Positions 36,385 to 36,977 of a stretch of DNA of 64,000 bases are shown in pieces (the stretch's first letter is position 1; every line of letters starts with the position of its first letter). The translations under genes and the position numbers were made by a program. The stretch spans positions 1 through 64,000 of IMG/VR virus record IMGVR_UViG_3300011335_000826; one strand, written 5' to 3'. Below the pieces are notes generated by a model. That model did no database searches. It was not told the origin of the DNA and saw only the letters and a program-made list of their open reading frames with translations. Source of the stretch: a virus (Duplodnaviria; Caudoviricetes).

Positions 36385-36431
36385 ATGTGCGGTCGCAGCA
36401 TATTTTGCCGAACTTTGCTGCGACCGCACAT
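36385..36431. repeat. Perfect 16-bp inverted repeat (operator-like)
   Basis: ATGTGCGGTCGCAGCA-15 nt-TGCTGCGACCGCACAT. Confidence 0.9.
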
Positions 36432-36451
36432 AAATAGTGTTACAATAGAAC

Positions 36452-36511
36452 ATAGGATGCTGCATGGTGCGGGTCCTATAGTCTACTTGCTTATCTAAGG
36501 AGAAACCCATG
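36452..36511 (+). promoter_or_regulatory. Second ROSE-like leader (same architecture as hsp20)
   Basis: ATAGGATGCTGCATGGTGCGGGTCCTAT hairpin; CTTGCTT-ATCT-AAGGAG. Confidence 0.65.
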
Positions 36512-36790
36512 TTCACAGCAGACACAATGATCGACACCGTTCAAAACAGTAAAAAACAATTCGTCAAGACTTTCGTCACCAACGAGCACATCGCCGAGTC
36601 AATGAATCATTTCATTGACACACAGGCTGAATACACCAAAAAGGCTTTCAAAGCTACCACAGATGCAGCCATAGAAATCATGCAAGAAACTCAAAAAGCC
36701 ATGCGTGAAGCTGCCAAGTTTGACTACAGCAAATTTGGCGAAGGTATCATGAAAGCATATCAAGCCAATGGGAAGACCAAAGGAGCATAA
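36509..36790 (+). CDS. Phasin-like amphipathic helical protein
   Basis: All-helical Ala/Lys/Gln/Thr-rich; DTMIDTVQ..KKQFV pattern; context of TGC-Nx-GCA operator. Confidence 0.6.
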   Translation: MFTADTMIDTVQNSKKQFVKTFVTNEHIAESMNHFIDTQAEYTKKAFKATTDAAIEIMQETQKAMREAAKFDYSKFGEGIMKAYQANGKTKGA

Positions 36791-36791
36791 C

Positions 36792-36977
36792 ATGTTCACG
36801 AAATTGGGAGATTATTTCGACCGAGCGGTGCGTTGGTTTAGTGAGCCACAGCATTATGGAACCAAACTGGAACAATACATCTTGTCACACAATCCTACCT
36901 CCACATGCCAAGTAGAAGCATTGGAGCGTAAGTTCGAGCTGATGTATTCGGCCCGCAACAAGAGTTGGATGATTTAA
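36792..36977 (+). CDS. DUF3563-like small protein
   Basis: LEQYILSHNP...VEALERKF pattern. Confidence 0.55.
   Translation: MFTKLGDYFDRAVRWFSEPQHYGTKLEQYILSHNPTSTCQVEALERKFELMYSARNKSWMI

What the first reader, a model, noticed from the sequence alone, without database searches (positions are those of the whole stretch)
36385..36977. Phasin-like + DUF3563-like pair behind a 16-bp inverted repeat resembling PhaR operators
Seen: perfect inverted repeat ATGTGCGGTCGCAGCA-N15-TGCTGCGACCGCACAT. The right arm overlaps a late TAAATA (36431-36436) and the expected -35 position of an extended -10 TGTTACAAT. Each arm contains CTGC-N4-GCAC. Known: PhaR binds TGC-Nx-GCA / CTGC-N3-4-GCAG motifs upstream of phasins and is titrated away by PHA granules. 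Inference: the phage senses host PHA (carbon storage) through host PhaR and expresses its own granule protein to access or stabilise that store. A divergent late gene (35949-36323) shares this intergenic region.
Basis: partly seen in the sequence, partly recalled or inferred. Interest (0 to 1): 0.75.

Follow-up and report, generated by a model that had tools for sequence, protein, structure and literature searches.

The report
Doubled host-type operator on phage promoter
An uncultured giant phage drives a small helical, phasin-like gene and a tiny partner gene from a promoter carrying two mirror-image copies of a bacterial-type operator; at this position most related phages carry the exact site that the PHB-granule sensor PhaR uses on real phasin genes.

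Summary
The perfect 16-bp inverted repeat (36385-36400 / 36416-36431, 15-nt spacer) is real. It is the longest in the 88-kb virus record and far beyond chance.

It is two inverted copies of one 17-bp box. Close relatives carry a single copy at the same promoter position.

In 39 of 45 related giant-phage loci that position holds a canonical PhaR/PhbF box (TGYTGC-N3-GCARCA), usually the best match in the whole locus. The same box flanks 57 of 58 genuine phasin promoters sampled from Burkholderiales.

This phage carries a different allele, ATGTGC-N4-GCAGCA, which scores poorly as a PhaR box. The allele is still functional-looking:
- The exact 16-mer occurs in 24 viral contigs, at least 16 of them beside the same two gene families.
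- It swaps with the canonical box between sister phages.
- It matches an intergenic site upstream of aceE in 6 of 30 host-family genomes.

So family-wide wiring to host PHB or acetyl-CoA regulation is well supported. PhaR binding to this particular repeat is not shown.

Neither protein can be placed in its proposed family. The 93-aa protein has only weak, consistent leads to Phasin_2. The 61-aa protein fails every DUF3563 test, although bacterial DUF3563 genes themselves carry PhaR boxes.

This scan has already reported the PhaR-box and phasin-like theme on other phage genomes. The variant allele and its doubling are new here.

The parts
36385..36401 (.). Box L: distal copy of the 17-bp variant operator (ATGTGC-N4-GCAGCAT). 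It forms the left arm of the inverted repeat.
   Evidence: The same 17-mer is the only box at this promoter position in L006 and L008. The exact 16-mer occurs in 24 viral contigs.
36415..36431 (.). Box R: promoter-proximal copy in inverted orientation, forming the right arm. It ends 9 nt before the -10 hexamer and so covers the -35 region. Its last three bases begin CATAAATA.
   Evidence: It is identical to the single box of L013 and L026. It is absent from the five closest alignable relatives, where the window shows a 34-nt insertion.
36429..36446 (+). Core promoter: CATAAATA (36429-36436), then the extended -10, TGT + TACAAT (36438-36446). There is no good -35.
   Evidence: Read from the sequence. 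The element is conserved across relatives. The simple sigma-70 scan does not call it because the -35 is missing.
36451..36508 (+). 5' leader with hairpin 1 (36452-36479), hairpin 2 over the Shine-Dalgarno (36482-36503) and the SD itself (AAGGAG, 36497-36502). It is ROSE_3-like.
   Evidence: Rfam RF02523 matches full length at 26.4 bits, below the gathering score of 43, E = 0.0011. L005 shows compensatory changes. The hsp20-like gene at 26354-26416 has the same leader.
36509..36790 (+). ORF1, 93 aa: a three-helix protein of a large phage family (fam93), called phasin-like on weak evidence.
   Evidence: 749 clusters of homologues, none carrying a Pfam domain. The AlphaFold2 model has pLDDT 85.
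36792..36977 (+). ORF2, 61 aa (fam61). It starts 1 nt after the ORF1 stop and is probably co-transcribed.
   Evidence: 66 clusters of homologues, all starting at this ATG. No Pfam family is matched. The model is poor, pLDDT 63.
35949..36323 (-). Divergent 124-aa gene sharing the intergenic region. It has a Cys/His motif and a Lys/Pro/Ala-rich tail.
   Evidence: Its start and the TATAAATA at 36341-36348 are conserved in L004, L006, L007 and L008.
36995..37045 (+). End of the operon: a hairpin (37004-37039) followed by a T-run. It overlaps a near-consensus sigma-70 promoter (TTGACC-17-TATAAT, 36995-37023) for the next gene.
   Evidence: The promoter scores 11 of 12. The hairpin is read from the sequence.

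Best explanation
The inverted repeat is a doubled operator on the promoter of a small phage operon (the 93-aa helical fam93 protein plus the 61-aa fam61 protein).

Its unit is a 17-bp, roughly symmetric box of a kind used by the Burkholderiales hosts. Across this group of ~340-kb phages the box lies over the -35 region, just upstream of an extended -10. A bound host dimer or tetramer would therefore block RNA polymerase.

In most relatives the box is the canonical PhaR/PhbF/AniA site found on host phasin promoters. There the gene should be repressed by free PhaR and released when PHB granules titrate PhaR away.

This phage carries the alternative allele, in which one half-site has slid by one base (TGC-N4-GCA). 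The allele is present twice, in mirror orientation, with centres about 30 bp apart (three helical turns), which would favour cooperative binding.

The binder of this allele is a host regulator of PHB or acetyl-CoA metabolism. It may be PhaR in an alternative binding mode, or whatever factor uses the matching site upstream of host aceE. A ROSE-like leader adds control at translation.

Shown: the sequences, their conservation, their positions and their matches to host sites. Inferred: who binds, the sign of regulation, and any granule role for the proteins.
For: The repeat is real and non-random.

Relatives carry one box at the same place, and the window has a 34-nt insertion carrying the second copy.

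I built a weight matrix from 51 boxes on host phasin promoters. In 38 of 45 related loci its best hit in the whole ~6-kb locus falls 50-110 nt upstream of the fam93 start, at 14-24.6 bits. One further locus ranks second at 18 bits. The background rate of hits at 12 bits or more is 1.5e-5 per position.

Host phasin promoters carry the same box in 30 of 31 loci sampled across the order and 27 of 27 across the family, usually two copies ~58 bp apart.

The motif is published and footprinted or gel-shifted: TG[N]TGC[N]3GCAA for H. seropedicae PhbF (PMC3206438) and YGC-RNY-GCR with AT-rich arms for S. meliloti PhaR (PMC12542648).

Complete relatives hold only one or two such boxes in 330-350 kb, one of them always at this promoter. 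They encode no PhaR of their own. Three of three candidate host-lineage genomes do.

The variant allele looks functional:
- Of the 24 viral contigs carrying the exact 16-mer, 11 have it next to fam93 genes, 7 next to fam61 genes (2 contigs have both) and 4 next to another small gene starting MFT. It occurs in both orientations.
- Sister phages differ in allele. The window is sister to L004 (support 99/88) and L006 to L007 (100/99). At least 6 switches are forced by well-supported branches.
- The same half-sites with a variable 4-nt spacer lie in AT-rich intergenic DNA about 80-160 nt upstream of aceE in 6 of 30 host-family genomes. One further genome has an N3 box there.

PhaR controls pdh in S. 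meliloti. Alternative PhaR sites with other gap lengths have been proposed in B. diazoefficiens.
Against: The window's arms fail the canonical PhaR-box test, scoring -0.9 and -4.5 bits.

Host phasin promoters use N3 spacing 106 times against 7 for N4.

The variant is not enriched in 401 host-family genomes: 18 hits against about 12 for the control. No hit lies beside a phasin gene.

The apparent genome-wide excess of ATGTGC-N4-GCAGCA in five host genomes is a coding-sequence artefact. Only the aceE sites are intergenic. The host binder could therefore be a local aceE regulator unrelated to PhaR.

The doubled arrangement was found in no other viral or metagenome contig, so the second copy may be a recent, neutral duplication.

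No binding or expression data exist.
Confidence: 0.55

Rival explanations
1. The variant box is the site of a different host regulator: the one acting at the aceE (pyruvate dehydrogenase E1) promoter in some Comamonadaceae, for instance the neighbouring PAS-sensor two-component system. On this reading the phage has swapped PhaR control for pyruvate or acetyl-CoA control, and the repeat has nothing to do with PhaR.
For: The variant equals the intergenic site upstream of aceE in 6 of 30 host-family genomes, and in one of them the match is exact over 16 nt. That site lies between a PAS-domain sensor gene and aceE. In the same genomes phaP carries only N3 boxes. N4 boxes are nearly absent from phasin promoters.
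Against: The variant keeps the TGC and GCA triplets, the ATG...CAT flanks and the 17-bp length of the PhaR box. It occupies exactly the same promoter position and swaps with the PhaR box between sister phages. One host genome has an N3 box at the aceE position. pdh is a PhaR target in S. meliloti.
Confidence: 0.25
2. Only the promoter-proximal box matters. The second, distal copy is a recent neutral inverted duplication or a recombination scar between two promoter alleles of opposite orientation, so the perfect palindrome has no function of its own.
For: All 45 relatives and all 20-odd variant-bearing contigs have a single copy. The doubled form was not found in the viral or metagenome collections. 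Single boxes occur in either orientation, which gives the raw material for such a recombinant.
Against: Both copies are perfect over 16 bp. Host phasin promoters normally use two boxes. The ~30-bp centre-to-centre spacing puts the two copies on one face of the helix.
Confidence: 0.1
3. The repeat acts as an RNA or DNA hairpin, not as a protein-binding site. It could be an intrinsic terminator or insulator for minus-strand transcription, since it is followed on that strand by T-runs, or it could form a cruciform.
For: The hairpin is very stable on both strands (-31.6 and -30.4 kcal/mol; z = -7.1 and -5.9). On the minus strand T-rich runs follow it.
Against: The terminator scan does not call it, because the loop is 15 nt. 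The nearest minus-strand gene to its right is 3 kb away, beyond ten plus-strand genes. Relatives keep the box but have no hairpin. On the plus strand it lies upstream of the -10 and would not be transcribed.
Confidence: 0.05
4. A phage-encoded regulator binds the box.
For: The variant 16-mer is unusually invariant among otherwise diverged phages.
Against: The box occurs once per record, or 1-2 times in complete 340-kb genomes, and it matches host sites. No PhaR-like gene is present in the phages. Apart from fam93 and fam61, no gene cluster is shared across the variant-bearing loci.
Confidence: 0.05

Closest known systems
PhaR / PhbF / AniA repression of phasin genes (phaP) in PHB-storing proteobacteria (H. 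seropedicae PhbF, PMC3206438; S. meliloti AniA, PMC12542648)
   Same: A 17-bp palindromic box with TGC and GCA triplets and AT-rich flanks sits on the core promoter of a small helical-protein gene. In 39 of 45 related phages the box cannot be told apart from host phaP boxes. Two boxes per promoter is the host norm.
   Different: Here the promoter is in a phage genome that has no phaR. The window's boxes have 4-nt rather than 3-nt spacing. They lie 30 bp apart upstream of the -10, whereas host boxes lie ~58 bp apart and bracket the promoter. The regulated protein is not a demonstrable phasin.
Host transcription-factor sites on phage auxiliary genes, for example PhoB (Pho) boxes upstream of cyanophage pstS (from my own knowledge, not checked here)
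   Same: A phage promoter carries an operator for a host nutrient-status regulator, which ties phage gene expression to host physiology.
   Different: The regulator and signal differ (PHB store or acetyl-CoA rather than phosphate). The site is polymorphic between two operator types among sister phages.
Intergenic ATGTGC-N4-GCAGCAA site upstream of aceE in some Comamonadaceae (found here; not described in the literature searched)
   Same: It has the same half-sites and spacing as the window's box, and the match is exact over 16 nt in one genome.
   Different: It is a single copy. The spacer varies among hosts but is nearly invariant in phages. Its binder is unknown.
ROSE-type RNA thermometers of small heat-shock genes (Rfam ROSE_3, RF02523)
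   Same: The leader of ORF1 and that of the phage hsp20-like gene share a two-hairpin architecture in which the Shine-Dalgarno is paired.
   Different: The match is below Rfam's gathering score (26.4 against 43 bits), and the leader sits on a non-heat-shock gene.

Membership tests
PhaR/PhbF/AniA operator (PhaR box) | Palindrome with TGC-N3-GCA core: TG[N]TGC[N]3GCAA, or YGC-RNY-GCR with AT-rich arms | tested here: not met
   The window's arms have N4 spacing and score -0.9 and -4.5 bits on a matrix built from 51 host boxes (median 21.2). The feature is met in 39 of 45 related phage loci at the same promoter position.
PhaR/PhbF/AniA operator (PhaR box) | Lies on or next to the core promoter of the regulated gene | tested here: met
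   Box R ends 9 nt upstream of the -10 hexamer and covers the -35 region.
PhaR/PhbF/AniA operator (PhaR box) | The host encodes PhaR and uses the box on its own phasin genes | tested here: met
   The PstS gene points to a Comamonadaceae-like host. PHB_acc_N is present in 3 of 3 such genomes. Canonical boxes are present on 57 of 58 phaP promoters.
PhaR/PhbF/AniA operator (PhaR box) | PhaR binds the DNA and is released by PHB | not testable with these tools
   This needs EMSA or footprinting and a reporter in phaR and phaC mutants.
Phasin_2 (PF09361) / TIGR01985 | HMM match above the curated cut-off | tested here: not met
   ORF1 has no Phasin_2 hit at E <= 1. TIGR01985 scores 15.8 bits against a cut-off of 99.7. 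Nine of 150 distant relatives hit Phasin_2, all below the cut-off (best 22.6 against 24.9 bits) and in inconsistent registers.
Phasin_2 (PF09361) / TIGR01985 | Profile-profile similarity to genuine phasins | tested here: inconclusive
   hhalign against 31 Burkholderiales phasins gives probability 0.4-3% and E = 0.015-0.16, although the alignment is in a sensible N-terminal register.
Phasin_2 (PF09361) / TIGR01985 | Amphipathic helical fold like PhaP (PDB 5IP0) | tested here: inconclusive
   5ip0_A aligns at Z = 7.2, rmsd 2.3 A over 70 residues, rank 15, tied with many unrelated helical proteins. Foldseek against PDB finds nothing significant. The top two BFVD hits are phage proteins that UniProt names phasin.
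Phasin_2 (PF09361) / TIGR01985 | Binds PHA granules | not testable with these tools
   This needs localisation of a GFP fusion or granule proteomics.
DUF3563 (PF12086) | HMM or profile match | tested here: not met
   There is no hit for ORF2 or for any of 27 family members, and none in the record even at E <= 10. hhalign against 5 bacterial DUF3563 proteins gives probability 0.1%. The only lead is the language-model nearest annotated cluster, scoring 0.86.
DUF3563 (PF12086) | Comparable context: a gene of ~55-60 aa behind a PhaR-type box | tested here: inconclusive
   Four of 6 bacterial DUF3563 loci have a box of 17 bits or more within ~130 nt upstream. fam61 genes have the variant box in 7 contigs, but none in 9 other loci.
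Intrinsic terminator | GC-rich hairpin with a short loop followed by a U-run, placed downstream of a gene | tested here: not met
   The scan does not call it. The loop is 15 nt, and no upstream gene lies on the strand that carries the T-run.
ROSE_3 RNA thermometer (RF02523) | Covariance-model score above the gathering score | tested here: inconclusive
   The match is full length at 26.4 bits against a gathering score of 43, E = 0.0011.

The most novel reading that the evidence does not exclude
These phages may be polymorphic for two interchangeable host-operator cassettes on one promoter: a phaP-type PhaR box and an aceE-type N4 box. Recombination would then re-wire the same small-protein operon between 'on when PHB is present' and a second carbon-status logic. 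The doubled box in this phage would be a cooperative, high-occupancy version of the second.

The two small proteins, and bacterial DUF3563, would be unrecognised members of the PHB-granule and PhaR regulon.
Probability: 0.25. Interest if true: 0.8.

Novelty: new variant of a known kind. Interest (0 to 1): 0.62.

Why it matters
If it holds, giant freshwater phages read the carbon-storage state of their hosts through the hosts' own regulator sites. That would add a carbon-status case to the known examples of host nutrient-status regulators acting on phage genes.

The operator polymorphism between sister phages would show regulatory rewiring by cassette exchange. It gives a clean, testable pair of alleles on the same promoter.

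Two side results are directly testable. DUF3563, an uncharacterised bacterial family, is predicted to belong to the PhaR regulon. A new operator type lies upstream of aceE in some Comamonadaceae.

Tried and rejected
- **Pfam, PHROGs and NCBIfam** on both ORFs and their neighbours gave nothing above cut-off.
- **Phage GenBank blastn** of the locus found no match.
- **PDB sequence search** with the fam93 profile found nothing. Foldseek against PDB found nothing significant.
- **A host regulon for the variant box** did not emerge. The exact variant is not enriched in 401 host-family genomes and is never beside phasin genes. The relaxed pattern looked enriched in five genomes (36 hits against 4 for the control), but the hits are almost all inside genes, so this is a codon-composition artefact.
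- **phaR promoters** hold canonical boxes or none, never the variant.
- **The other strong PhaR-matrix hit in the record** (76208, 17 bits) lies inside a coding region next to the clamp-loader gene and was rejected as chance.
- **The element as a general phage promoter motif** was rejected, because it occurs only here in the record.
- **T4-type 'late promoter' status of TAAATA/TATAAATA** has no statistical support in this fragment.
- **Unpublished genome G029:** loci L161 and L198 were listed by the tools but left out of every analysis.

Full report
**What is there.** The window is the first 64 kb of an 88,253-bp IMG/VR virus record, estimated 26% complete. Its relatives are contigs of 310-350 kb, several with terminal repeats, so this is a ~340-kb giant phage.

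The repeat is exactly as described: arms at 36385-36400 and 36416-36431, 16 perfect pairs and a 15-nt spacer. It is the longest perfect inverted repeat in the record; only three of 11 bp or more exist. It folds at -31.6 kcal/mol, z = -7.1.

It lies in a 185-bp divergent intergenic region. To the left is a 124-aa gene on the minus strand (35949-36323) behind a conserved TATAAATA. To the right lie, in order:
- CATAAATA;
- an extended -10 (36438-36446);
- a structured leader;
- a strong Shine-Dalgarno;
- ORF1 (36509-36790, 93 aa);
- ORF2, one base later (36792-36977, 61 aa; the homologues fix this start);
- a hairpin with a T-run that overlaps the next sigma-70 promoter.

**The repeat is a doubled box.** I fetched 55 related loci through ORF1. 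None has an inverted repeat upstream. Alignment with the five closest shows that the window carries a 34-nt insertion. The relatives have one copy of the element, ending 9-10 nt before the -10.

Printing all the upstream regions showed that this element is a conserved 17-bp palindrome, consensus ATGTTGC-N3-GCAACAT, directly fused to the CATAAATA / extended -10 block. With a 17-nt spacer the -35 hexamer falls inside its left half, so a protein bound there would compete with RNA polymerase. That last step is inference.

**The box is a host PhaR box in most relatives.** The phage pstS gene (33958-34998) is 65-71% identical to PstS of Polaromonas, Rhodoferax, Curvibacter and other Comamonadaceae. 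This points to a Burkholderiales host, although a gene's origin is not proof of host.

I collected genuine Phasin_2 genes from 41 genomes of that order and 31 of that family.
- In the order sample, 30 of 31 phaP upstream regions carry TGC-N3-GCA boxes with the same flanks. In the family sample, 27 of 27 do.
- There are usually two boxes about 58 bp apart. The proximal one typically reads ATGCTGCACTGCAACAT.

This is the published motif. H. seropedicae PhbF protects TG[N]TGC[N]3GCAA and represses phaP1 (PMC3206438). S. meliloti PhaR/AniA binds YGC-RNY-GCR palindromes with AT-rich arms and is titrated by PHB (PMC12542648).

A weight matrix built from the 51 order-level boxes gives these results:
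- In 38 of 45 phage loci the top hit of the entire ~6-kb locus falls on the fam93 promoter, at 14-24.6 bits. One more locus ranks second at 18 bits.
- The background rate at 12 bits or more is 1.5e-5 per position in phage DNA. At 15 bits or more it is 7e-6 in host DNA.

Complete relatives hold only one or two strict boxes in 330-350 kb, one always at this promoter. They have no PhaR gene. The three candidate host-lineage genomes do.

**This window has a different allele.** Its arms score -0.9 and -4.5 bits. Relative to a host box, one half-site has slid by a base. The triplets, the flanks and the 17-bp length are kept, but the spacing is TGC-N4-GCA. L006, L008, L013, L021 and L026 carry the same 17-mer once, in either orientation.

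Host phasin promoters almost never use N4: 2 against 51, and 5 against 55.

The allele is nevertheless not decay:
- The exact 16-mer occurs in 24 IMG/VR contigs. In about 20 it lies in AT-rich intergenic DNA.
- Eleven contigs have it next to a fam93 gene and seven next to a fam61 gene (two have both). Four have it next to a 121-aa gene that also starts MFT. Four look like chance coding hits.
- On a fam93 tree the allele is scattered. Nine changes are needed and at least six are forced by well-supported branches, no better than shuffled labels. The window is sister to L004 (canonical; support 99/88), and L006 (variant) is sister to L007 (canonical; 100/99).

Since four substitutions or two indels separate the alleles, repeated exchange by recombination is the simplest reading. 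That is inference.

**A host counterpart of the variant.** The exact variant is not enriched in 401 host-family genomes (18 hits against about 12 for the control) and is never beside phasin genes. Two hits were orthologous sites upstream of a pyruvate dehydrogenase E1 (aceE-like) gene, opposite a PAS-sensor gene.

Sampling aceE in 30 family genomes found ATGTGC-N4-GCAGCAA in six, with six different spacers, about 80-160 nt upstream. One further genome has an N3 box of 14.4 bits at that place. Conserved half-sites with a free spacer are the signature of a protein-binding site.

A genome-wide excess of the relaxed pattern turned out to be coding-sequence composition. Only the aceE sites are intergenic.

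Who binds is open. PhaR positively controls pdh in S. meliloti, and alternative PhaR sites with other gaps have been proposed in B. diazoefficiens. A local aceE regulator is an equally simple reading. I put PhaR or a PhaR-like mode at roughly 40% for this allele and another host factor at roughly 40%.

The centres are about 30 bp apart, and PhbF is treated as a tetramer in PMC3206438. Host phasin promoters normally use two boxes. Cooperative binding is therefore plausible, but a neutral duplication cannot be excluded.

A terminator or insulator role is unlikely. The loop is 15 nt, the scan does not call it, and there is no gene to terminate on the T-run strand.

**The proteins.** ORF1 belongs to a large phage family: 749 clusters at 90% identity, and 366 representatives at E <= 0.001. 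The model has three helices at pLDDT 85.

It cannot be shown to be a phasin:
- There is no Pfam hit.
- Phasin_2 is the only recurrent family among 150 distant relatives, but all nine hits are below cut-off and in inconsistent registers.
- hhalign against 31 true phasins gives probability 0.4-3%.
- The solved phasin 5IP0 aligns at Z = 7.2, tied with unrelated helical proteins.

The consistent weak leads are these:
- TIGR01985.
- The top two BFVD hits are named phasin by UniProt.
- The nearest annotated language-model clusters are all PHA-related: Phasin_2, PHB_acc and PHA_synth_III_E, all scoring below 0.9.

ORF2 fails every DUF3563 test apart from a language-model lead at 0.86.

An unexpected parallel exists. 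Four of six bacterial DUF3563 genes examined carry a PhaR box of 17-21 bits within ~130 nt upstream, and no paper in the library mentions DUF3563. fam61 genes standing alone have the variant box in some phages and no box in others.

**Leader.** The 5' UTR matches Rfam ROSE_3 over its full length at 26.4 bits, below the gathering score of 43. It is shared with the hsp20-like gene at 26417 and with a third site in the record. L005 shows compensatory changes. This was noted separately by the scan (e1-5955132).

The PhaR-box and phasin-like theme has already been reported by this scan on other phage genomes. I reached it independently before reading those notes. No paper in the searched library describes it.

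New here are:
- the variant allele and its exchange with the canonical box;
- its host counterpart at aceE;
- its doubling;
- the PhaR boxes on bacterial DUF3563 genes.

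Noticed in passing
window 26320-26420 and 36451-36508; record position ~66770-66850 (-), outside the window: The same two-hairpin, ROSE_3-like leader (conserved tail ACTTGCTTAT followed by AAGGAGAAAC) precedes the hsp20-like gene, the fam93 gene and a third site. The hsp20 promoter is TTGACA-17-TATAAATA.
   Followed up: partly
window 35949-36323 (-): The divergent 124-aa protein has a C-x-C-G-x-S...G-x-C-x-G-x-H motif (CDGSH-like by eye) and a Lys/Pro/Ala-rich tail of the histone-H1 kind, reminiscent of the PhaF and PhaM tails. 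It has no Pfam hit. Its TATAAATA is one of only two in the 88 kb.
   Followed up: partly
L175, L177, L196, L197 (bacterial DUF3563 loci): Four of six Burkholderiales DUF3563 (PF12086) genes have a strong PhaR-type box (17-21 bits) within ~130 nt upstream, in one case directly after a TTGACT-17-TATGAT promoter. DUF3563 may therefore belong to the PhaR regulon. No paper in the library mentions the family.
   Followed up: partly
L272, L273, L277, L278, L280, L289 (host aceE upstream regions): A conserved intergenic site, ATGTGC-N4-GCAGCAA with a variable spacer, lies between a PAS-sensor gene and aceE in 6 of 30 Comamonadaceae-family genomes. L288 has an N3 PhaR-type box at the same place.
   Followed up: partly
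window 33958-34998: The phage pstS is 65-71% identical to Polaromonas, Rhodoferax and Curvibacter PstS. This is the best host clue in the window.
   Followed up: partly
window 36995-37045: A near-consensus sigma-70 promoter (11 of 12, with TG) is embedded in the loop of the terminator-like hairpin that ends the fam93/fam61 operon.
   Followed up: no
L234, L240, L248, L257: Smaller viral contigs carry the variant box upstream of a 121-aa protein that starts MFT and has a phasin-like N-terminus by eye, but no Pfam hit. It may be a third small-protein family under this operator.
   Followed up: partly
L172 versus L023 and L025: One bacterial phaP promoter box with its flank (about 22 nt) is almost identical to the box and flank of some phage promoters. 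This hints that the promoter was captured from a host phaP locus.
   Followed up: no
record 76091-77206, outside the window: A T4-like clamp-loader (gp44/RFC-like) gene follows a small ORF, so the phage has a T4-type replication module.
   Followed up: no
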